Below, one piece after another: positions 1 to 6,173 of a stretch of DNA of 6,173 bases. Position 1 is the stretch's first letter; every line of letters starts with the position of its first letter. Where the stretch lies: the IMG/VR virus record IMGVR_UViG_2609459804_000023. The stretch is one strand, 5' to 3'. The DNA is from a virus (lineage: Duplodnaviria > Heunggongvirae > Uroviricota > Caudoviricetes). The notes beneath the pieces are model-generated. The model searched no databases. It was given only the letters and a program-made list of their open reading frames with translations, and was not told where the DNA came from. Position numbers and translations under genes: made by a program.

Positions 1-15
1 TGCCAACTTACTGAT
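1..15. repeat. IS1 left terminal inverted repeat (partial)
   Basis: Positions 1-15 are the reverse complement of the matching part of the right repeat at 738-760 with few mismatches. Confidence 0.8.
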
Positions 16-47
16 TTAGTGTATGATGGTGATTTTAAGGTGCTTGC

Positions 48-323
48 GTGGCTTCCATTTCCATCAGATGTCCTTCCTGCTCCGCTACTGAAGGCGTGGT
101 GCGTAACGGCAAAAGCACTGCCGGACATCAGCGCTATCTCTGCTCTCATTGCCGTAAAACATGGCAACTACAGTTCACTTACACCGCCTCTCAGCCCGGT
201 ACGCACCAGAAAATCATTGATATGGCCATGAATGGCGTCGGATGTCGCGCCAGTGCACGCATTATGGGCGTTGGCCTCAACACGGTTTTACGTCACTTAA
301 AAAACTCAGGCCGCAGTCGGTAA
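48..323 (+). CDS. insA: IS1 InsA (transposition repressor / N-terminal part of transposase), GTG start
   Basis: 91-aa [46 protein letters not shown]... with zinc-finger-like CxxC..CxxC and helix-turn-helix region, matching InsA from memory; stop TAA at 321-323. Confidence 0.92.
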
Positions 324-745
324 CCTCGCGCATACAACCGGGCAGTGATGTGATTGTCTGCGCTGAAATGGACGAACAGTGGGGCTACGTCGGTGCTAAA
401 TCACGTCAGCGCTGGCTGTTTTACGCGTATGACAGGATACGGAGGACTGTTGTGGCGCACGTCTTCGGTGAACGCACTCTGGCCACACTGGAGCGTCTTC
501 TGAGCCTGCTGTCGGCCTTTGAGGTCGTGGTATGGATGACGGATGGCTGGCCGCTGTATGAATCACGCCTGAAGGGAAAGCTGCACGTTATCAGCAAGCG
601 TTACACTCAGCGCATTGAGCGACATAATCTGAATCTGAGACAACATCTGGCAAGGCTGGGACGGAAGTCACTGTCGTTCTCAAAATCGGTGGAGCTGCAT
701 GACAAGGTCATCGGGCATTATCTGAACATAAAACACTATCAGTAA
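242..745 (+). CDS. insB: IS1 InsB reading frame (catalytic part of the transposase, expressed as InsAB' fusion by -1 frameshift from insA)
   Basis: 167-codon open frame in the -1 frame relative to insA, overlapping its 3' end; C-terminal sequence ...[54 protein letters not shown]... is typical of InsB. Confidence 0.9.
297..305 (+). promoter_or_regulatory. Programmed -1 ribosomal frameshift motif TTAAAAAAC (A6C) of IS1
   Basis: Exact ttaaaaaac heptamer context inside the insA/insB overlap, upstream of the insA stop. Confidence 0.8.
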
Positions 746-760
746 GTTGGAGTCATTACC
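738..760. repeat. IS1 right terminal inverted repeat
   Basis: atcagtaagttggagtcattacc; reverse complement resembles the IS1 left end. Confidence 0.85.
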
Positions 761-907
761 ATCGCCAGGATGATTTCTCAGATAACAGGAGTTGATATTC
801 AGTATTGCCGGAGGCGGGTCGTGTGGTGCGAGAGGGTCCTTGATTCAGAAATGTTTTATGCAATGAAGCGAGAATTGGAGAAAGAACTTCTAGTGATTAC
901 TGGATGA
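761..907 (+). pseudogene. Open frame running from the IS1 boundary to a TGA at 905-907; possible 3' remnant of the late antiterminator Q gene interrupted by IS1
   Basis: Only one of the three plus frames is open across 761-904 (IARMISQITGVDIQYCRRRVVWCERVLDSEMFYAMKRELEKELLVITG*); the in-frame ATG at 770 has no usable Shine-Dalgarno; the stop lies about 25 bp upstream of a PR'-like promoter, which is where Q ends in lambdoid phages. The Q identity is inference by position, not sequence recognition. Confidence 0.3.
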
Positions 908-931
908 TGCAAAATATTTTTTGTAAATGCG

Positions 932-960
932 TTGCTTTCGAGAAATGAAAGTAGTATGTT
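932..960 (+). promoter_or_regulatory. Candidate late promoter PR' (-35 TTGCTT 932-937, 17-bp spacer, -10 TATGTT 955-960), likely including the Q-utilisation region
   Basis: Sigma70-like hexamers with 17-bp spacing located about 110-130 bp upstream of a strong terminator, the arrangement of lambdoid PR'-tR'. Confidence 0.4.
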
Positions 961-966
961 TTGTGT

Positions 967-1095
967 ATGCTCGGAGCAAAAGCGCACTGAGAAGCGAAAG
1001 AGAAATCCTGATTTACCTCGGTCGTCGATAATATTTAGGATCGGCATACTGGCTAGATTAGGTAAAGGCCTCGGCAGAAATGTCGGGGCTTTTTG
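967..1095 (+). ncRNA. Short PR'-to-tR' transcript (lambda 6S-RNA-like terminated late leader; approximate 5' end)
   Basis: Region between the candidate PR' and the tR' hairpin with no convincing ORF; by analogy with lambda 6S RNA and the terminated PR' transcripts of Stx phages. Confidence 0.35.
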
Positions 1096-1098
1096 TTT
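1068..1098 (+). terminator. Intrinsic terminator tR' (9-bp stem, GAAA tetraloop, T-run)
   Basis: gcctcggca-gaaa-tgtcggggc followed by tttttgttt; the downstream sequence gcacaacaggtaagagcattga resembles, from memory, the sequence immediately after lambda tR'. Confidence 0.75.
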
Positions 1099-1171
1099 GC
1101 ACAACAGGTAAGAGCATTGAACCCGCAGACCTCGTGGAATTGGTGAAAGGTGTGCGCAGTGCTCTTATCGT

Positions 1172-1298
1172 TGTGGTGAAGCTCAATGGCGAGCTAGCAG
1201 ACAGGCGACTGTGAAAATACTAGTCATGTAGCGGATCGCCGCGCGTATTGTAATCGGCAGCGCACCGATGGGAGCTGGTTCGATTCCGGCCGCCACAA
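1172..1298 (+). pseudogene. tRNA-like relic: acceptor 5' strand plus D-arm (1172-1194) and T-arm plus acceptor 3' strand (1274-1297) separated by too much sequence for a functional tRNA
   Basis: tgtggtg (1172-1178) pairs perfectly with cgccaca (1291-1297); D-arm gctc-aatggc-gagc; canonical T-arm gctgg-ttcgatt-ccggc; total span about 125 nt with no canonical anticodon loop and no encoded CCA. Confidence 0.35.
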
Positions 1299-1414
1299 TC
1301 CAAACTGAGCCGTAGCCTCTGGGTGTCCTGAATTCATCAGTGATAGTTACGCTGCGGCCTTCTACATACGATTTTTGTGAAAAGCGGGTGGCAAGAGGCT
1401 GCGAAATTTTTAAA

Positions 1415-1636
1415 TACCTCACAATTCCACAGCTTGATGATTGTCTGGCTGCCGGAGAATTTGTTAAAAATTACATCGCGTGGTGAATCCCCCTCAGCGG
1501 CGGGGCATCTGGCAAAGTGTATGATCCAGCGAACATGCAAATTCAGTAGCCAGGCTGAATTTACCGGGAGGCACCTGGCACCATGCGACAGACAGAAATT
1601 AGGCTATACTTCAGCCCCTCTCCGGAGGGGCTTTTC
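1415..1636 (+). repeat. Module A of a tandem triplicated element (candidate small-RNA or attenuator unit) ending in an intrinsic terminator
   Basis: Shares ordered conserved blocks with 1881-2120: tcacaattc, attgtctggc, tttgttaaaaa, ggtgaatccccct, a conserved-stem hairpin (1489-1506), accgggaggcacc.tgcaccatgc, and the terminator agcccctc-tccg-gaggggct-ttt. Indels shift the reading frame between copies. Confidence 0.6.
1613..1636 (+). terminator. Intrinsic terminator of module A (8-bp GC-rich stem, UCCG loop, T-run)
   Basis: agcccctc tccg gaggggct tttc. Confidence 0.8.
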
Positions 1637-1677
1637 TGTGCAGGATGTGTCACAGTTTCCTGAATTCTGAGTACTGT

Positions 1678-1849
1678 CCTGTTACTCAGGGTGCTATATT
1701 TTCTGACGTGATGAAAGTCTGCCGGAAGGCGGAACGTATCGGAAATGACCCAGTAGAGAAAACGTTGACTCAGATACCGATGCTGAGTTACCGGGAAACC
1801 GGCATCACATGACCGCTATCCTTCCAGGCTCGCTCCGGCGGGCCTTTTT
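1678..1849 (+). repeat. Module B, a shortened and more diverged copy of the same element
   Basis: Retains gttactca, gatga..gtctg..ccgga, gctgagttaccgggaaaccggcatcacatg and a terminator with the same UCCG loop. Confidence 0.5.
1827..1849 (+). terminator. Intrinsic terminator of module B
   Basis: ggctcgc tccg gcgggcc ttttt (7-bp stem with one G-U pair). Confidence 0.75.
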
Positions 1850-1880
1850 ACTGCAGAAAACAGTTTTCCCGTAAAATGCC

Positions 1881-2120
1881 ACGTTACTCACAATTCAGGC
1901 TGGCGATTATTGTCTGGCCAGCGGGAAGTTTGTTAAAAAAATATGGCATGGTGAATCCCCCTGTGCGGAGGGGCATATCAGCGACAGGTGTTTGGTCACA
2001 CCCCTTATCCTTTCTGGTGCGGGTTCAGGTGCTGATACTGAACTCACCGGGAGGCACCCTGCACCATGCATGAACGGTACATAGCGCTACTCTCCAGCCC
2101 CTCTCCGGAGGGGCTTTCTT
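1881..2120 (+). repeat. Module C of the tandem triplicated element, ending in an intrinsic terminator
   Basis: Same ordered conserved blocks as module A, a hairpin at 1957-1974 with conserved stem and different loop, and an identical terminator stem-loop at 2096-2115; preceded by a -10-like TAAAAT at 1872-1877. Confidence 0.6.
2096..2120 (+). terminator. Intrinsic terminator of module C
   Basis: agcccctc tccg gaggggct ttcttgtt. Confidence 0.7.
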
Positions 2121-2127
2121 GTTGGAT

Positions 2128-2157
2128 AAAAAAAAGCCCGCGCCGGGAAGCGCGGGT
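2128..2157 (-). terminator. Minus-strand intrinsic terminator (hairpin preceded on the plus strand by A8), convergent with the module C terminator
   Basis: aaaaaaaa gcccgcgc cgggaa gcgcgggt: read on the minus strand this is an 8-bp GC stem followed by U8. Confidence 0.5.
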
Positions 2158-2357
2158 GGCAAGGAATAAACAACAAAACGTGAAGTGATCAATTTTCAGC
2201 TGGCGAATAATACCCGACAGTAATCACTCTGCGCAACTGTATGGTCTTTTTCGTATTGCGGGCTGTAGTCATCCTCCTGTTTCTGAACCCTTGTCCATGA
2301 CTGACGTCAGCCCGCACCTTATCTTGATTGCATACACTATCCCTGCCGGGAGGAATA

Positions 2358-4331
2358 ATGGCATTTAAACACTATGACGTGGTCAGGGCATCATCGCCGT
2401 CAGACCTCGCAGGAAAACTGACGCAAAAACTGAAGGAAGGCTGGCAACCCTATGGTAGTCCGATTATCTCAAACGCGGGTTATGGTGCTGAATTTATCCA
2501 GGCTATAGTCGCTGAAGGGGATATGACCTCTCCGGTAGTTTCACCGGGGGGAGATGGTACCCGGACTGTTGTTGTTGAACCAGAATATTACTTTGTCATT
2601 GCGCTGGCCGGACAGTCAAACGGCATGGCGTATGGTGAAGGTCTGCCGCTGCCGGAGACATATGACCGTCCGGACCCGCGTATTAAACAGCTGGCGCGTC
2701 GCAGTACGGTGACACCGGGTGGTGCGGCCTGTGCATATAACGACATCATTCCGGCGGACCACTGCCTGCATGATGTGCAGGATTTGAGCCGTTTTTCTCA
2801 TCCGAAAGCCAGCGCAGAGCAGTATGGGTGTGTCGGACAGGGATTGCATATTGCCAAAAAGCTGTTGCCCTTTATGCCGGAAAATGCGGGTATTTTGTTA
2901 GTGCCGTGCTGTCGTGGTGGCTCTGCGTTTACAGCCGGTGCTGACGGAACGTTCAGTGAAAGTTCAGGAGCGTCGGATAAATCTGAACGATGGGGCGTTG
3001 ATAAGCCGTTGTATAAAGACCTGCTGACACGCACTCAGGCCGCGCTGAAGGCAAACCCCAAAAACATACTGCTTTGTGTTGTCTGGATGCAGGGCGAGTT
3101 TGATTTAAAACAGGGAGCGTACGCCAGTCAGCCCGCCATGTTTGATGCCATGGTGGAAAAATACCGTTCTGACCTGGCGGGAGTATCCGGTCAGTGCGCT
3201 GGTGCTTCTCCTTCTCTGGTGCCCTGGATTTGTGGTGACACGACGTACTACTGGAAGGAGACGTATTCAGCGCAATACGATGCCGTCTATGGCGCATACA
3301 AAACCAAAGCCGGTAAAAATATCTTCTTTGTGCCGTTTATGATGGATGACAATGGTCAGAAAGTCGGGACCAATGAACCGTCAGAAGACCCGGATATTCC
3401 GGCTATCGGGTATTATGGTTCCGGTGGACGAACGGATGCGAAGAGCTGGACAACATCCGATCGTAAAACCCACTTTGGTTCATGGGCGCGTCGCGGAATT
3501 ATTTCCGACCGTCTGGCAACAGCCATTCTTCTGCATGTGGGCAGAGTGGCAGATTTTGTTTCCGGGAAAGTGACAAAAGCCGCGGTTTCTTCAGGCGGAG
3601 GCGTATCGCAACCAGCACAGGAGAGTGGCGATACTCAGCCTGAATCCGTTGTCCCGACAAAGATACAGTCAGTGCTGGCTTATGATGCGAATGCGGAAAA
3701 TGCCGATCTGGCTTCGCAGGGCTGGACGCTGACAGATGTCAAAAACACGCTGGTCAGTGACAGTGGTTCAGGTAAAAAAGCCCTTCGTCTTGAAAAACCA
3801 GAAAATGGTCTTGCACAGAAAAAGACCTGGAAAGTATCGCACGCAATTGATGCCGGTAAGGGGAAGGAGCTGTTCGATAACGGCGGTGAAATCACGCTGC
3901 GCTTTAAAATCCCCGATGATGTATCTCTCAATGCTTCTGCAAATCAATATTCTGCGGGTATTTACTGGCGCGGTAGTGGATGGCCGGGAGCGGAATCAGA
4001 GGAGGGTTATATTGCGGCCTTCTATCTGCAGACTGATAAAACAAACATCAATGTGATGTATCATGCAAACACCACATCACAGCGGCTTGGTAGTTATGGT
4101 CCGTTCGATCACGACTGGCACACGCTGACTTTCCGCTTCCCGGGTGGTGGCTCGCTGAACGTCACGCCGGTGCTTGATAATGCAGCAGGAAAACCGTTTA
4201 CGCTGACCAGATGGACGAATGCAGCCTTTGAGGCCAACGCGCTGGCAATTACGGATATTACCGGAAATGCGGCAACTTACCCTGTGCTGATTGAAAGTCT
4301 TACTGTTGGTGTGAATGCCGTAGCAGCATAA
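2358..4331 (+). CDS. nanS: Prophage-encoded sialate O-acetylesterase of the NanS-p type (N-terminal DUF1737-like region, SGNH/SASA esterase core with GQSN motif, about 250-aa C-terminal domain)
   Basis: 657-aa ORF; GGGAGG at 2348-2353 four nt before ATG 2358; N-terminus MAFKHYDVVRASSPSDLAGKLTQKLKEGWQPYGSPIIS and motif FVIALAGQSNGMAYGEG are characteristic of the family; location between the late regulatory region and the holin matches nanS-p in EHEC lambdoid prophages. The ORF-track start at 2328 is probably an upstream in-frame ATG without a ribosome-binding site. Confidence 0.88.
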   Translation: MAFKHYDVVRASSPSDLAGKLTQKLKEGWQPYGSPIISNAGYGAEFIQAIVAEGDMTSPVVSPGGDGTRTVVVEPEYYFVIALAGQSNGMAYGEGLPLPETYDRPDPRIKQLARRSTVTPGGAACAYNDIIPADHCLHDVQDLSRFSHPKASAEQYGCVGQGLHIAKKLLPFMPENAGILLVPCCRGGSAFTAGADGTFSESSGASDKSERWGVDKPLYKDLLTRTQAALKANPKNILLCVVWMQGEFDLKQGAYASQPAMFDAMVEKYRSDLAGVSGQCAGASPSLVPWICGDTTYYWKETYSAQYDAVYGAYKTKAGKNIFFVPFMMDDNGQKVGTNEPSEDPDIPAIGYYGSGGRTDAKSWTTSDRKTHFGSWARRGIISDRLATAILLHVGRVADFVSGKVTKAAVSSGGGVSQPAQESGDTQPESVVPTKIQSVLAYDANAENADLASQGWTLTDVKNTLVSDSGSGKKALRLEKPENGLAQKKTWKVSHAIDAGKGKELFDNGGEITLRFKIPDDVSLNASANQYSAGIYWRGSGWPGAESEEGYIAAFYLQTDKTNINVMYHANTTSQRLGSYGPFDHDWHTLTFRFPGGGSLNVTPVLDNAAGKPFTLTRWTNAAFEANALAITDITGNAATYPVLIESLTVGVNAVAA

Positions 4332-4337
4332 CAGACG

Positions 4338-4373
4338 AAAAAAACCGCCAGCAACAGGAATGGAGACTGGCGG
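4338..4373 (-). terminator. Hairpin with flanking A7 just after the nanS stop; possible weak or antisense-direction terminator
   Basis: aaaaaaa ccgccag (15-nt loop) ctggcgg; U-tract only on the minus strand; the loop is long, so weak. Confidence 0.25.
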
Positions 4374-4471
4374 AGGTAATCCCAATGGAGAATCTAACGA
4401 AAGGATGCTTTCGACATCAATCATTTCTAAATGAAAACAGTTCTCATTGTCAACAGTAACGGTAATAAACC

Positions 4472-4666
4472 ATGACATTCATCAACCAGTTAATGCTGTA
4501 CTTCTGTACGGTGGTCTGTGTGTTGTATCTGCTTTCGGGTGGATACAGGGCAGTACGCGACTTCTGGCGCAGACAGATTGACAAAAGGGCCGCTGAGAAA
4601 ATCAGCGCCACTCAGTCAGCCGGAGCAAAAACAGAAGCCCCACTCATTCCGGAACAACCTTCTTAA
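4472..4666 (+). CDS. Hypothetical small membrane protein (64 aa, N-terminal transmembrane segment, basic C-terminal tail)
   Basis: ORF MTFINQLMLYFCTVVCVLYLLSGGYRAVRDFWRRQIDKR...; hydrophobic N-terminus; weak Shine-Dalgarno; sits 25 bp upstream of the next ORF. Confidence 0.35.
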   Translation: MTFINQLMLYFCTVVCVLYLLSGGYRAVRDFWRRQIDKRAAEKISATQSAGAKTEAPLIPEQPS

Positions 4667-4691
4667 TAACCCCTTTCAACGAGAAAATCTC

Positions 4692-4982
4692 ATGACAGAT
4701 ATAAAACAACTGGTCACTGCTGAGGCAGTGAAGGAAGTCATTCGCTCTGAAGAAGTCAGAAGCGTCCTGAAACAAAAACTCCGCCAGAATCTGGAAGAGC
4801 GTCTTGATGCAGAAGTGGATTCAATTCTGGATGAATTGCTTGGTGCACAGCCGGAACCATCCCCGGAACTGCTTCCGGAACCACAGGCGGAAGATGTCAC
4901 CACGGAAAATGGTGATATTCAGCCGGAGTCACCGGTGACGGATATGACAGACACACAACCCGAACCGGGCACAATGCTGTAA
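4692..4982 (+). CDS. Hypothetical acidic protein (96 aa; N-terminal helical region, Pro/Glu-rich low-complexity C-terminus)
   Basis: In-frame ATG at 4692 (MTDIKQLVTAEAVKEVIRSEEVRSVLKQKLRQNLEERLDAEVDSILDELLGAQPEPSPELLPEPQAEDV...); the longer ORF-track version from 4518 overlaps the preceding ORF in another frame and is less likely. Confidence 0.45.
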   Translation: MTDIKQLVTAEAVKEVIRSEEVRSVLKQKLRQNLEERLDAEVDSILDELLGAQPEPSPELLPEPQAEDVTTENGDIQPESPVTDMTDTQPEPGTML

Positions 4983-4993
4983 CGGCGGGGCAG

Positions 4994-5024
4994 GGCCATC
5001 AGTAAAACACTGATGGCCTTTTTT
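4994..5024 (+). terminator. Strong intrinsic terminator immediately upstream of the holin gene
   Basis: ggccatcag-taaaaca-ctgatggcc (perfect 9-bp stem) followed by tttttt. Confidence 0.8.
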
Positions 5025-5058
5025 ATTTCCGGTAGCACAGGTCTGTCGGGGCGGGGAT

Positions 5059-5274
5059 ATGTATCAGATGGAAAAAATATCAACGGGCATAGCCTATGGT
5101 ACTTCTGCGGGCAGTGCGGGTTACTGGTTTCTACAGTGGTTGGATCAGGTTACTCCGTCACAGTGGGCTGCTATCGGGGTTTTGGGGAGCCTGTGTCTGG
5201 GGTTCCTGACATACCTGACGAATCTGTATTTCAAAATTAAAGAGGACCGTCGCAAGGCTGCCCGGGGAGAGTGA
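5059..5274 (+). CDS. S: Class II holin of the phage 21 S21 pinholin type with dual-start motif (71-aa antiholin from ATG 5059, 68-aa holin from ATG 5068)
   Basis: [71 protein letters not shown] is near-identical, from memory, to S21; two hydrophobic segments; GGGGA placed optimally for the second ATG. Confidence 0.88.
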
Positions 5275-5278
5275 TTAG

Positions 5279-5812
5279 GTGACTCAGAAACTCCACTATG
5301 GTTTATCGGTAGCCGTTCTGGCGCTGATTGCGGCAGGTGCTTCTGCGCCTGAAATCATCGACCAGTTTCTTGACGAAAAAGAAGGTAACCACACCACGGC
5401 ATACCGTGATGGTGCGGGGATCTGGACCATCTGCCGTGGTGCCATCATGGTGGATGGCAAACCTGTCGTCCCGGGCATGAAGTTGTCGAAGGAAAAATGC
5501 GACCAGGTTAACGCCATTGAGCGTGATAAGGCGCTGGCATGGGTGGAGAAAAACATCAGAGTGCCACTGACCGAACCCCAGAAAGCGGGGATCGCGTCAT
5601 TCTGTCCGTACAACATCGGGCCTTCGAAATGCTTCACCTCAACGTTTTACCGGAAACTGAACGCCGGAGACCGGAAAGGTGCATGTGCTGAAATCCGCCG
5701 ATGGATATATGACGGCGGCAGGGACTGTCGGAATCGCTCAAATAACTGTTACGGGCAGGTATCGCGGCGTGACCAGGAGAGCGCGCTGGCGTGCTGGGGA
5801 ATTGACAGATAA
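5279..5812 (+). CDS. R: SAR (signal-arrest-release) endolysin, T4-lysozyme-like glycoside hydrolase family 24; GTG start
   Basis: N-terminal SAR-like segment GLSVAVLALIAAGASAP; catalytic E-x8-D-x5-T triad in EGNHTTAYRDGAGIWT; positioned 4 nt after the pinholin stop, the usual pinholin plus SAR-endolysin pairing. Confidence 0.92.
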   Translation: MTQKLHYGLSVAVLALIAAGASAPEIIDQFLDEKEGNHTTAYRDGAGIWTICRGAIMVDGKPVVPGMKLSKEKCDQVNAIERDKALAWVEKNIRVPLTEPQKAGIASFCPYNIGPSKCFTSTFYRKLNAGDRKGACAEIRRWIYDGGRDCRNRSNNCYGQVSRRDQESALACWGIDR

Positions 5813-5902
5813 GCAGAATATTTTGCTGAAAAATGCGGTTTGCTCACACGGACGGATAACACGAAATCCTGCGAACTGACAAAAACTAAGTGAATAAAAG
5901 TA

Positions 5903-5937
5903 AAAACCCCGTTTGTTGGCTGCAAGCGGGGTTTTGT
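5903..5937. terminator. Bidirectional intrinsic terminator downstream of the endolysin gene
   Basis: aaaaccccg...cggggtttt hairpin with inner ttg/caa extension, A-rich upstream and T-rich downstream, so U-tracts exist in both orientations. Confidence 0.7.
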
Positions 5938-5968
5938 GTTTCTGACCTTGGATAAGGCAAGGGAGAAC

Positions 5969-6151
5969 ATGGAAAAGTATAAACGAATTCTGTTGAGGTT
6001 GACTATGAAAAACGGCCTTGAACTGAAAGCGCCTGTAACTGATGACATCAGCAGAGCACTGGCTTTTGCCATTAAGTGGGTGGCGGTCGGTGTTGCTGTG
6101 TCCCCGATGCTGTATGGGCTGGCAAAACTGGTCATTGCGTTGAAATCGTGA
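5969..6151 (+). CDS. Hypothetical small membrane protein (60 aa from ATG 5969; C-terminal transmembrane segment)
   Basis: MEKYKRILLRLTMKNGLELKAPVTDDISRALAFAIKWVAVGVAVSPMLYGLAKLVIALKS; aagggaga ribosome-binding site just upstream; the ORF-track GTG start at 5936 lies inside the terminator hairpin and is unlikely. Confidence 0.35.
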   Translation: MEKYKRILLRLTMKNGLELKAPVTDDISRALAFAIKWVAVGVAVSPMLYGLAKLVIALKS

Positions 6152-6165
6152 AGGGAGGATTAAGC

Positions 6166-6173
6166 ATGTCAGA
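6166..6173 (+). CDS. 5' end of the next gene (only ATG TCA GA in window); by position possibly the i-spanin Rz
   Basis: Strong Shine-Dalgarno agggagg at 6152-6158 followed 7 nt later by ATG at 6166; the gene continues beyond the window. Confidence 0.25.

What the first reader, a model, noticed from the sequence alone, without database searches (positions are those of the whole stretch)
4472..4982. Pair of small uncharacterised genes (membrane peptide plus acidic disordered protein) between nanS-p and the holin
A 64-aa single-pass membrane protein followed 25 bp later by a 96-aa strongly acidic protein with a Pro/Glu-rich tail. They are bracketed by the nanS stop and a strong terminator, so they form a discrete unit in an accessory position. 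Acidic phage proteins of this size are often DNA mimics or anti-defence factors, and small membrane proteins next to lysis genes can modulate holin timing. I cannot assign either to a known family.
Basis: inference. Interest (0 to 1): 0.5.

Follow-up and report, generated by a model that had tools for sequence, protein, structure and literature searches.

The report
Two small conserved prophage accessory genes
The two small genes are real and conserved, but they belong to two already catalogued phage protein families of unknown function (DUF1378 and DUF826), so this is an ordinary annotated feature whose role is still untested.

Summary
ORF-A (4472-4666, 64 aa) is a single-pass membrane peptide. 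ORF-B (4692-4982, 96 aa, pI 4.05) is a helical hairpin with an acidic, proline-rich disordered tail. They lie between the NanS-p-type esterase and an S21-type holin, flanked by a hairpin (4345-4373) and a terminator (4992-5020).

A is Pfam DUF1378 (E 7e-36) and B is DUF826 (E 8e-25). RefSeq already annotates both under those names, and similar DNA occurs in 1025 of 5426 complete E. coli genomes. Both are under purifying selection (dN/dS about 0.2).

Context gives the only functional clues:
- The pair follows the esterase both in lambdoid phages and in Mu-like prophages that have no lysis genes nearby.
- It occurs in reversed order, without an esterase, after tail-fibre genes.
- Short DUF1378 alone overlaps the spanin stop codon in two unrelated lysis cassettes.
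- Stx2 phage 86 lacks the pair.

No homology to a holin, defence protein, solved structure or DNA mimic was found.

Best guess, at low confidence: a dispensable late-expressed accessory module acting at the inner membrane, most likely tuning lysis. The DNA-mimic idea is poorly supported. Function remains experimentally unknown.

The parts
2358..4331 (+). NanS-p-type esterase (DUF1737 + SASA + DUF6645). It is the usual upstream neighbour of the pair and is listed as context, not as part of the pair.
   Evidence: Pfam hits. PGAP calls the same 657-aa CDS in an IS1-free relative. An esterase precedes DUF1378 in every IMG/VR locus that holds enough upstream sequence, and also in Mu-like prophages. 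In phage phi24B the homologue gp84 is a capsid decoration protein (bioRxiv 10.64898/2026.04.10.717836).
4338..4373 (.). A-run (4338-4344) followed by the hairpin CCGCCAG(15 nt)CTGGCGG (4345-4373), just after the esterase stop codon. It marks the upstream boundary of the pair.
   Evidence: Read from the sequence. The stem is kept through compensatory changes in lambdoid and Mu-like loci. With the A-run on the 5' side, it reads as an intrinsic terminator for the minus strand. This reading is an inference.
4472..4666 (+). ORF-A: a DUF1378 family protein of 64 aa. It is a single-pass inner-membrane peptide. The N-out/C-in topology is inferred from the positive-inside rule.
   Evidence: Pfam PF07125: E 7.1e-36, 122.6 bits against a cut-off of 25, covering the full model (1-59 of 59). 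PHROG phrog_494: E 5.7e-38. Hydropathy and charge. AlphaFold2 predicts a helix at 2-51. dN/dS is 0.19-0.23. RefSeq annotates the identical DNA in strain G1/2 as a DUF1378 family protein (WP_024192660.1).
4692..4982 (+). ORF-B: a DUF826 protein of 96 aa. It has a conserved N-terminal helical hairpin (residues 1-51), an acidic Pro-rich variable tail and a hydrophobic C-terminal tip (TML).
   Evidence: Pfam PF05696: E 8.4e-25, with model position 1 aligned to residue 1. PHROG phrog_311: E 3.8e-34. Structure prediction. Alignments. The ATG start is conserved; divergent homologues carry AAGGAG just upstream of it and in-frame stops 8-35 codons upstream. dN/dS is 0.18-0.22 for the N-terminal domain and 0.41-0.46 for the tail. 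Tail statistics.
4992..5027 (+). Intrinsic-terminator-like hairpin (12 pairs, 4992-5020) plus a T-run, between ORF-B and the holin.
   Evidence: The structure is kept with differing stem sequences in lambdoid loci, and unrelated terminators follow B in the Mu-like loci and in L093. It is also present upstream of S in phage 86, which lacks A and B.
5059..5274 (+). S21-type (class II) holin, the downstream neighbour. Listed as context.
   Evidence: Pfam PF04971, E 5.3e-35.
5279..5812 (+). Phage lysozyme (endolysin). Listed as context.
   Evidence: Pfam PF00959, E 2.3e-25. PHROG phrog_7, annotated endolysin.

Best explanation
Shown:
- The two ORFs are genuine, co-oriented, adjacent genes of the Pfam families DUF1378 (A) and DUF826 (B).
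- The families are restricted to temperate phages and prophages of Enterobacterales, overwhelmingly those of E. coli and Shigella.
- A is a bitopic inner-membrane peptide. Its transmembrane helix (about residues 3-24) ends in the invariant motif GGY and continues into a basic cytoplasmic helix.
- B is a soluble protein. It has a 50-residue helical hairpin and, in most members, a variable acidic Pro-rich tail that ends in two or three hydrophobic residues.
- In every context examined the genes lie at the 3' end of a late operon, in slots where accessory genes accumulate. At least one sequenced Stx phage lacks them.

Inferred:
- The two proteins work together at the cytoplasmic face of the inner membrane, with the acidic hairpin of B docking on the basic helix of A.
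- Their most likely role is as an auxiliary modulator of the membrane step of lysis. In this model A is a small peptide that acts on the holin or on membrane energisation, and B is its cytoplasmic regulator. This would be analogous in logic, but not in sequence, to the membrane and cytoplasmic antiholin arrangement of phage T4.

Identity and family assignment are near certain. The confidence given below refers to the lysis-tuning mechanism.
For: Family membership.

Real coding genes: dN/dS about 0.2 and conserved ATG starts.

A and B are linked to each other:
- 309 phage records hold A and 307 hold B, out of 50,697.
- In all 80 closely related IMG/VR loci, B follows A.
- Adjacency survives a swap of gene order. 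In L125 the order is B then A, after tail-fibre assembly genes, with no esterase and no lysis genes.
- Adjacency also survives transfer into Mu-like prophages, where the pair lies between gin and com/mom.

Association of A with lysis genes:
- In lambdoid phages the pair lies directly upstream of an S21-type holin, including in the divergent loci L088 and L091.
- A short DUF1378 (49-50 aa) overlaps the stop codon of the i-spanin gene by ATGA in two lysis cassettes. Those cassettes have holins from different families (PF04971 and PF05106) and spanins that are unrelated in sequence (E = 35).

Architecture.

Precedent for a lysis regulator split between membrane and cytoplasm: T4 antiholins RI and RIII (PMC8385771, listed).
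Against: - No experiment exists for either family. Only one paper mentions them, and it calls their function unknown.
- Neither protein hits a holin, antiholin or other lysis family in Pfam or PHROGs.
- The pair is well conserved in Mu-like prophages and in tail-fibre accessory regions, far from any lysis gene.
- Stx2 phage 86 and a Stx1a phage go straight from the esterase to the holin.
- Positions next to lysis cassettes are also common insertion sites for unrelated accessory genes.
- The holin in this window already has a dual-start motif (MYQMEK), which in S21-type holins provides a built-in antiholin. This last point rests on my own knowledge.
- An A-B contact was not tested. The only structure tool is single-chain, and the attempted fusion alignment was misaligned.
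Confidence: 0.35

Rival explanations
1. Superinfection exclusion, or modulation of a host inner-membrane target. A would be a small inner-membrane protein that blocks entry of incoming phage DNA or binds a host membrane protein, in the manner of the HK97 gp15 accessory gene. B would be its cytoplasmic helper.
For: - All five contexts are classic accessory-gene slots: after Q/pR', after Rz, the right end of Mu, after tail-fibre assembly genes, and before a tailspike.
- Neighbours include surface-modifying conversion genes: Acyl_transf_3, a hexapeptide acetyltransferase, a GT25 glycosyltransferase and a Dam methylase.
- Terminators follow B.
- HK97 gp15 is a small inner-membrane protein encoded by such an accessory gene, and it blocks genome injection (PMC3594210).
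Against: - No promoter above shuffle expectation was found upstream of the pair in any context, so expression from a repressed prophage is unsupported.
- A has almost no periplasmic part, at most about 2-5 residues.
- The ATGA overlap with spanin genes argues for late, lysis-coupled expression.
- A has no Pfam hit other than DUF1378, and so none to the YebO/gp15 family.
Confidence: 0.25
2. Accessory factors of the NanS-p esterase, for example a chaperone, a membrane tether, or a control on its processing or loading onto the capsid.
For: - The order esterase-A-B is kept in two unrelated phage backbones, lambdoid and Mu-like. In both, the esterase is only about 55-57% identical to the window's.
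- The esterase is a virion decoration protein that is proteolytically processed.
Against: - A and B occur together without any esterase in L125.
- A occurs alone in lysis cassettes and after tail-fibre genes.
- 351 phage records hold the esterase but only 309 hold A and 307 hold B. Phage 86 has the esterase without the pair.
- Esterase alleles are shuffled relative to A and B (47-100% identity against 86-100% for A).
- Neither protein appears in the part of the phi24B virion proteome table that is held.
Confidence: 0.1
3. One reading: B is an acidic DNA mimic or anti-defence protein that protects the phage from restriction or other defence systems.
For: pI 4.05 and net charge -15. In some relatives a restriction-modification cassette lies nearby.
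Against: - The acidity lies mostly in a disordered tail that varies in sequence and length (pLDDT below 50, dN/dS 0.41-0.46). That tail is missing from the short family members.
- The conserved core is a 50-residue helical hairpin.
- The gene is always at the end of a late operon, whereas anti-restriction proteins must act early.
- B is tightly linked to a membrane peptide.
- No PADLOC, PDB-sequence or fold-search match was found.
Confidence: 0.05
4. B is a virion "head completion protein", as labelled in GenBank record PV340552 and in some other phage records.
For: Only the annotation text in a few phage records.
Against: - PHROG phrog_311 is classed as unknown function.
- No ORF between gp84 and the lysis genes appears in the held part of the phi24B virion proteome table. 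That file was cut when stored, and small acidic proteins are easily missed.
- B also occurs in Mu-like myoviruses that have unrelated heads.
Confidence: 0.02

Closest known systems
Pfam DUF1378 (PF07125) / PHROG phrog_494, e.g. the "DUF1378 family protein" of Stx phages and E. coli prophages
   Same: ORF-A matches the full model (1-59 of 59, 122.6 bits). It has the same length class, the same N-terminal transmembrane helix and the same invariant GGY motif. It is identical to RefSeq WP_024192660.1.
   Different: Nothing distinguishes it from the family. The window protein is the 64-aa long form. Short forms of 48-50 aa occur alone in lysis cassettes and after tail-fibre genes. The family has no assigned function.
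Pfam DUF826 (PF05696) / PHROG phrog_311, e.g. 933W L0106 and VT2-Sakai H0118-H0120
   Same: ORF-B matches from model position 1 (87.2 bits). It has the same conserved 51-residue N-terminal domain and an acidic tail.
   Different: The window allele has the longest common tail type (45 residues, ending TML). It is 62-65% identical to the 933W type over the whole protein. Database entries of 132-154 aa (PGAP, L0106) start too far upstream and overlap DUF1378 in another reading frame.
Phage T4 antiholins RI and RIII acting on holin T
   Same: The logic is similar: small accessory proteins, one at the membrane and one small and cytoplasmic, that tune holin triggering and are dispensable for lysis itself (PMC8385771).
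   Different: There is no sequence or family relationship; neither protein has a Pfam or PHROG hit to a lysis family. No holin interaction has been shown. The host phages here are temperate and use S21-type or lambda-S-type holins.
HK97 gp15 (YebO-like), a small inner-membrane superinfection-exclusion protein encoded by an accessory gene
   Same: Both are small inner-membrane proteins encoded in accessory slots of temperate enterobacterial phages, and both are followed by a terminator (PMC3594210).
   Different: A has no Pfam hit other than DUF1378. No promoter of its own was detected. A usually has a soluble partner gene, and gp15 does not.
YdfR / DUF1327 (Qin prophage), a protein that binds the N-terminal domain of RNase E
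   Same: It is a small protein of unknown role encoded inside lambdoid lysis cassettes. It is present between holin and lysozyme in relatives.
   Different: It is a different family. YdfR is DUF1327, not DUF826. The RNase E findings (PMC13232886) therefore do not transfer to ORF-B.

Membership tests
Pfam DUF1378 (PF07125) | Score above the curated gathering threshold over the full-length model | tested here: met
   122.6 bits against a cut-off of 25; E 7.1e-36; residues 1-59 aligned to model positions 1-59 of 59.
Pfam DUF1378 (PF07125) | A protein of about 50-64 aa with one N-terminal transmembrane helix ending in the conserved GGY motif, followed by a basic helix | tested here: met
   Hydropathy and charge. 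G23, G24 and Y25 are invariant across divergent members. AlphaFold2 predicts a helix at 2-51.
Pfam DUF826 (PF05696) | Score above the curated gathering threshold, with the model start aligned to the protein start | tested here: met
   87.2 bits against a cut-off of 25; E 8.4e-25; residues 1-57 aligned to model positions 1-59 of 75.
Pfam DUF826 (PF05696) | A conserved N-terminal domain of about 51 residues (two helices) | tested here: met
   Mean column identity is 92% among close members. The core is recognisable down to 31-45% identity. AlphaFold2 predicts helices at 2-17 and 20-49.
Holin or antiholin families (Pfam holin families, PHROG category 'lysis') | Sequence match to a described holin or antiholin family | tested here: not met
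   The only Pfam hits are the two DUFs. The PHROG hits (494, 311, 8301) are all classed as unknown function. The neighbouring S gene does hit PF04971 and the lysis-category PHROG families.
Holin or antiholin families | Effect on lysis timing or on membrane permeability | not testable with these tools
   This needs genetics or physiology. There is only positional evidence.
DNA-mimic anti-restriction proteins (Ocr or ArdA type) | A folded, rigid surface displaying acidic residues in a DNA-like pattern, with sequence or fold similarity to known mimics | tested here: not met
   The acidic part is predicted disordered. It is variable, and it is absent from short members. There is no PDB-sequence hit and no Foldseek match to PDB or to the BFVD viral structure set.
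DNA-mimic anti-restriction proteins (Ocr or ArdA type) | Early expression, or delivery with the genome | tested here: not met
   The gene lies at the 3' end of late operons in all five contexts. This is positional evidence only.
Known anti-phage defence systems (PADLOC) | Match to any defence-system protein model | tested here: not met
   No hits at E up to 0.1 for A, B, the Mu-like B or the short A.
Moron in the strict sense (Juhala et al. 2000, as summarised in PMC3594210) | Its own terminator downstream | tested here: met
   Hairpin plus T-run at 4992-5020. Terminators also follow B in the Mu-like loci and in L093. In lambdoid phages, however, this terminator persists when A and B are absent.
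Moron in the strict sense (Juhala et al. 2000, as summarised in PMC3594210) | Its own promoter allowing expression from the repressed prophage | tested here: inconclusive
   No sigma-70-like site in 4200-5300. Hits upstream of the esterase and in other contexts are not above shuffle expectation. The consensus scan is crude.
YdfR / DUF1327 (RNase E-binding Qin protein) | Match to PF07041 | tested here: not met
   YdfR matches DUF1327 with E 1e-53. ORF-B matches only DUF826.
Virion 'head completion protein' (label in PV340552) | Homology to a head completion or connector family, or presence in virions | tested here: not met
   phrog_311 is classed as unknown function. No peptide or ORF from this interval appears in the held part of the phi24B virion proteome. 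That table is incomplete.

The most novel reading that the evidence does not exclude
A and B form a previously unrecognised two-component membrane module of temperate enterobacterial phages. A would be a minimal 50-residue peptide that acts on the membrane, or on a holin or host membrane target. B would be a soluble hairpin protein tethered to A. The acidic flexible tail of B, with its conserved hydrophobic C-terminal tip (TML, MML or MMM), would recruit or titrate a host or phage partner in the way the SSB C-terminal tail does. Together they would set the timing of the lysis or membrane step, or exclude other phages. The module would work in trans, which would explain its presence in lambdoid, Mu-like and P2-like genomes.
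Probability: 0.2. Interest if true: 0.6.

Novelty: already known. Interest (0 to 1): 0.3.

Why it matters
These two genes sit between the Shiga toxin and esterase genes and the lysis genes in almost every Stx phage. Similar DNA is present in about a fifth of complete E. coli genomes, yet nobody has tested what the genes do. If they tune lysis timing, they would influence how much toxin and phage an induced lysogen releases. If they exclude other phages, they would affect prophage competition.

The practical output of this work is modest:
- The correct family assignment for both genes.
- The correct start codon for the DUF826 gene. RefSeq and GenBank models are often too long, and some phage records carry a baseless "head completion" label.
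- A map of five genomic contexts, which shows that the pair is a unit in its own right and is not tied to the esterase or to the holin.

Tried and rejected
1. From memory I took YdfR (Qin prophage) to be a DUF826 protein, and found a 2026 paper showing that YdfR binds the RNase E N-terminal domain. Checking the K-12 sequence showed that YdfR is DUF1327 and lies between essQ and rrrQ. YbcW has no Pfam hit. This lead was dropped.

2. PHROG phrog_8301 and the proteins P0034 and P0063 looked like natural DUF1378-DUF826 fusions. Their sequences show they are frameshift or read-through products whose linkers are translated in the wrong frame. They are not evidence of a domain fusion.

3. An exhaustive profile search with the N-terminal domain of DUF826 against 1.84 billion representative proteins gave only 59 hits. 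All full-length hits were small proteins of the same architecture, apart from four large repetitive proteins that are probably spurious. No bridge to a known family was found.

4. PDB sequence searches with both family profiles, and Foldseek searches with the ORF-B model against PDB and the BFVD viral structure set, gave nothing significant.

5. PADLOC gave nothing. NCBIfam gave nothing for A or B.

The DUF1378 scan of 185,579 species-representative genomes found one locus, in Lonsdalea britannica.

7. I tried to test an A-B contact by folding a read-through fusion (P0197) with an unpaired alignment. MAFFT misaligned the DUF1378 rows, and the tool reports no contact information, so I abandoned this.

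8. A mirror-tree style comparison was not discriminating. The correlation of pairwise distances was 0.59 for A-B and 0.54 for B-holin.

9. Promoter scans were inconclusive.

10. Literature searches by Pfam, PHROG and InterPro accession numbers and by locus tags found nothing functional.
Full report
**What is in the window**

The window is the late region of a lambdoid E. coli prophage of the Stx-phage type.
- IS1 occupies 1-760.
- Two copies of the sRNA STnc100 follow.
- Next comes a NanS-p-type esterase (2358-4331; DUF1737 + SASA + DUF6645).
- Then the two small ORFs of the finding.
- Then a terminator-like hairpin, an S21-type holin (5059-5274) and a lysozyme (5279-5812).

Positions 761-6173 are 99.7% identical to a prophage of the commensal E. 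coli strain SCU-104. The 721 bases around the finding are 100% identical to Escherichia phage PhiR12_3 and to 11 of the complete E. coli genomes listed.

**Checking the observation**

Every stated property holds.

ORF-A (4472-4666, 64 aa):
- It has one strongly hydrophobic stretch (residues 3-21, Kyte-Doolittle 2.02).
- This is followed by a basic segment with 8 K/R and 5 D/E.
- AlphaFold2 predicts a single helix over residues 2-51.

ORF-B (4692-4982, 96 aa):
- It starts 25 nt after A.
- pI is 4.05.
- It has two predicted helices (2-17 and 20-49, pLDDT about 90 over residues 21-50).
- Its tail is disordered, with 10 acidic residues, no basic residues and 7 prolines in the last 39 positions.

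The unit is bounded upstream by a hairpin just after the esterase stop codon (4345-4373). It is bounded downstream by a 12-pair hairpin plus T-run (4992-5020).

**They are real genes of known families**

- A is a full-length member of Pfam DUF1378 (122.6 bits against a cut-off of 25) and of PHROG phrog_494.
- B is a member of DUF826 (87.2 bits against 25) and of phrog_311.
- RefSeq annotates the identical DNA as "DUF1378 family protein" and "DUF826 domain-containing protein". A megablast match occurs in 1025 of 5426 complete E. coli genomes, with a median of two copies per genome.
- Across 32 unique DUF1378 and 41 unique DUF826 nucleotide sequences, pairwise dN/dS is 0.19-0.23 for A, 0.18-0.22 for the N-terminal domain of B and 0.41-0.46 for the tail of B.

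Both families are nevertheless "domains of unknown function". The only paper that mentions them says only that they occur between nanS-p and S in some Stx2a phages.

**Start of ORF-B**

Database models of this gene are often 132-154 aa long. Examples are the PGAP models and 933W L0106. They begin upstream and overlap DUF1378 in another reading frame. Four observations favour the ATG at 4692 and the 96-aa form:
- The Pfam model starts at the ATG of 4692.
- All 41 unique homologues have ATG at that position.
- Divergent homologues carry AAGGAG-type ribosome-binding sites just upstream of it.
- Those homologues also have in-frame stops 8-35 codons upstream.

**How narrow the families are**

A profile of the DUF826 N-terminal domain was searched without word filters against 1.84 billion representative proteins.
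- It found 59 proteins at E up to 0.001.
- All full-length hits are small and share the same plan, apart from four large repetitive proteins that are probably spurious.

A scan of one genome for each of 185,579 species with DUF1378 patterns found a single locus, in Lonsdalea britannica. Named database members come from E. coli and Shigella, with a few from Citrobacter, Klebsiella, Yersinia and Lonsdalea.

**Genomic contexts: the informative part**

I found five contexts.

1. Lambdoid phages. The order is esterase, A, B, hairpin plus T-run, S21-type holin, endolysin. This holds in all 80 closely related IMG/VR loci wherever the contig is long enough, and also in divergent members.

2. Mu-like prophages. 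The order is gin, an esterase lacking DUF1737, A, B, a terminator, a 66-aa ORF, then com/mom. No lysis gene is nearby. B here is 45% identical to the window protein over the 51 residues aligned. The exact Mu-like protein P0209 is listed in 910 index blocks of the assembly collection.

3. After the tail-fibre and tail-fibre-assembly genes of a myovirus-type prophage. Here a short B without an acidic tail is followed by a short A, which is the reversed order. Next come an acetyltransferase and a Dam methylase. There is no esterase and no lysis gene.

4. A alone (49-50 aa), overlapping the stop codon of the i-spanin gene by ATGA. This occurs in two lysis cassettes:
   - One has an S21-type holin and an endolysin 77% identical to the window's lysozyme.
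   - The other has a lambda-S-type holin and an Rz of family PF03245.
   - Their spanins are unrelated in sequence (E = 35).

5. A alone after tail-fibre-assembly genes, next to an Acyl_transf_3 acyltransferase or a Dam methylase.

The pair is also dispensable. The esterase occurs in 351 phage records, A in 309 and B in 307. Stx2 phage 86 and a Stx1a phage go straight from the esterase to the holin.

**What the contexts imply**

- A and B are linked to each other more tightly than to anything else. Adjacency survives transfer between unrelated phage backbones and a swap of gene order.
- They are tied neither to the esterase nor to the holin, so they must be able to act in trans.
- All positions are 3' ends of late operons and well-known slots for accessory genes.
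- A on its own has a repeated, translationally coupled place at the end of unrelated lysis cassettes. This is the strongest functional hint available.

The esterase homologue of phi24B (gp84) was recently shown to be a capsid decoration protein that binds through DUF1737. In the part of that paper's virion proteome table that is held, no ORF from the interval between gp84 and the lysis genes is listed. The "head completion protein" label on B in some phage records therefore has no support.

**Mechanism**

I commit to the following, at low confidence (0.35).
- A inserts in the inner membrane with its N-terminus out and its C-terminus in.
- The acidic hairpin of B docks on the basic cytoplasmic helix of A.
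- Together they modulate the membrane step of lysis, meaning holin triggering or membrane energisation.
- They act as a dispensable tuning device, analogous in logic to the T4 antiholins RI and RIII (PMC8385771) but unrelated in sequence.

Only the architecture, the linkage and the positions are shown. The A-B contact and the effect on lysis are inferences.

The main rival (0.25) is a superinfection-exclusion or host-target function of the HK97 gp15 kind (PMC3594210). It fits the accessory slots and the neighbouring surface-modification genes. It lacks any sign of a separate promoter.

An esterase-accessory role (0.1) is weakened by the contexts that have no esterase.

The DNA-mimic idea (0.05) is weakened on four counts:
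- The acidic tail is disordered, variable and sometimes absent.
- The gene always sits in a late position.
- B is linked to a membrane peptide.
- PADLOC, PDB-sequence and fold searches gave no match.

**An unexplained detail**

In all 32 unique B sequences of 70 residues or more (tails of 28-50 residues), the acidic Pro-rich linker ends in a hydrophobic tip. The counts are TML 13, MMM 8 and MML 6, with five other variants once each. The linker itself varies freely. This resembles the plan of the SSB C-terminal tail, an acidic linker with a hydrophobic tip, and suggests a docking motif. I could not test this.

**Verdict**

The entity is already catalogued and annotated, and its function is genuinely unknown.

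Interest is modest, because this is a well-defined experimental target sitting in medically relevant phages but not a new kind of system.

Noticed in passing
window 1-907: IS1 (insA and insB, 1-760) is inserted inside the gene that occupies the Q-antiterminator position. In the IS1-free relative this gene is a 204-aa CDS with no Pfam hit (L147 3033-3647), and window 770-907 is its C-terminal remnant. If that gene is the late antiterminator, the late operon of this prophage, including the pair, may no longer be inducible.
   Followed up: partly
window 1448-1641 and 1917-2126: There are two tandem copies of the Rfam sRNA family STnc100 (139.9 and 129.9 bits). Each ends in a terminator hairpin (1613-1632 and 2096-2115). 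They lie between the Q-position gene and the esterase. In relatives such as PhiR12_3 and strain G1/2, a restriction-modification cassette (HsdM/HsdS-like) lies upstream of the esterase instead.
   Followed up: partly
window 4338-4373: An A-run followed by the hairpin CCGCCAG(15 nt)CTGGCGG lies directly after the esterase stop codon. Its orientation fits an intrinsic terminator for the minus strand. The stem is maintained through compensatory changes in lambdoid and Mu-like loci.
   Followed up: partly
window 4578-4982 and 4450-4611 (minus strand); L001 6239-6643; L002 4178-4624; L003 5111-5245: Public annotations of this interval are inconsistent. PGAP and 933W L0106 start DUF826 too far upstream, overlapping DUF1378. 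Record PV340552 omits DUF1378, calls a minus-strand ORF in its place, and labels DUF826 as "head completion protein".
   Followed up: yes
L094-L098 about 5600-8250; L007 1594-4246: Mu-like prophages carry a NanS-p-like esterase (SASA + DUF6645) that lacks the capsid-binding DUF1737 domain and has a different N-terminal segment of about 100 residues. It lies between gin and com/mom and is followed by DUF1378 and DUF826. The DUF826 protein of this cassette (P0209) is listed in 910 index blocks of the assembly collection.
   Followed up: partly
window 4845-4982 (ORF-B residues 52-96), and homologues: Every DUF826 tail of 28 residues or more ends in a hydrophobic tip (TML, MML, MMM, TLL and similar) after a freely varying acidic Pro-rich linker. 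The architecture resembles the SSB C-terminal tail. Its partner is unknown.
   Followed up: partly
L100 5509-6300; L101 3993-4799; L088 6555-6902: A DUF1327 (YdfR-family) gene lies between holin and lysozyme in Stx phages that lack the pair, and also in one prophage that has it. [quoted passage not shown]
   Followed up: partly
window 5059-5274: The holin begins MYQMEK, with two methionines three codons apart. This is the dual-start arrangement that gives S21-type holins a built-in antiholin. That interpretation rests on my own knowledge.
   Followed up: no
L001 4023-5992 compared with window 2358-4331: The esterase is intact in the window and in strain SCU-104, but it is annotated as frameshifted in strain G1/2. 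The DNA of the DUF1378/DUF826 pair downstream is 100% identical in the window and in strain G1/2.
   Followed up: no
L101 3623-3772: Stx2 phage 86 lacks both small genes but keeps the hairpin plus T-run and the S-proximal sequence. The presence or absence of the pair therefore looks like a clean insertion or deletion between the esterase 3' end and that terminator.
   Followed up: partly
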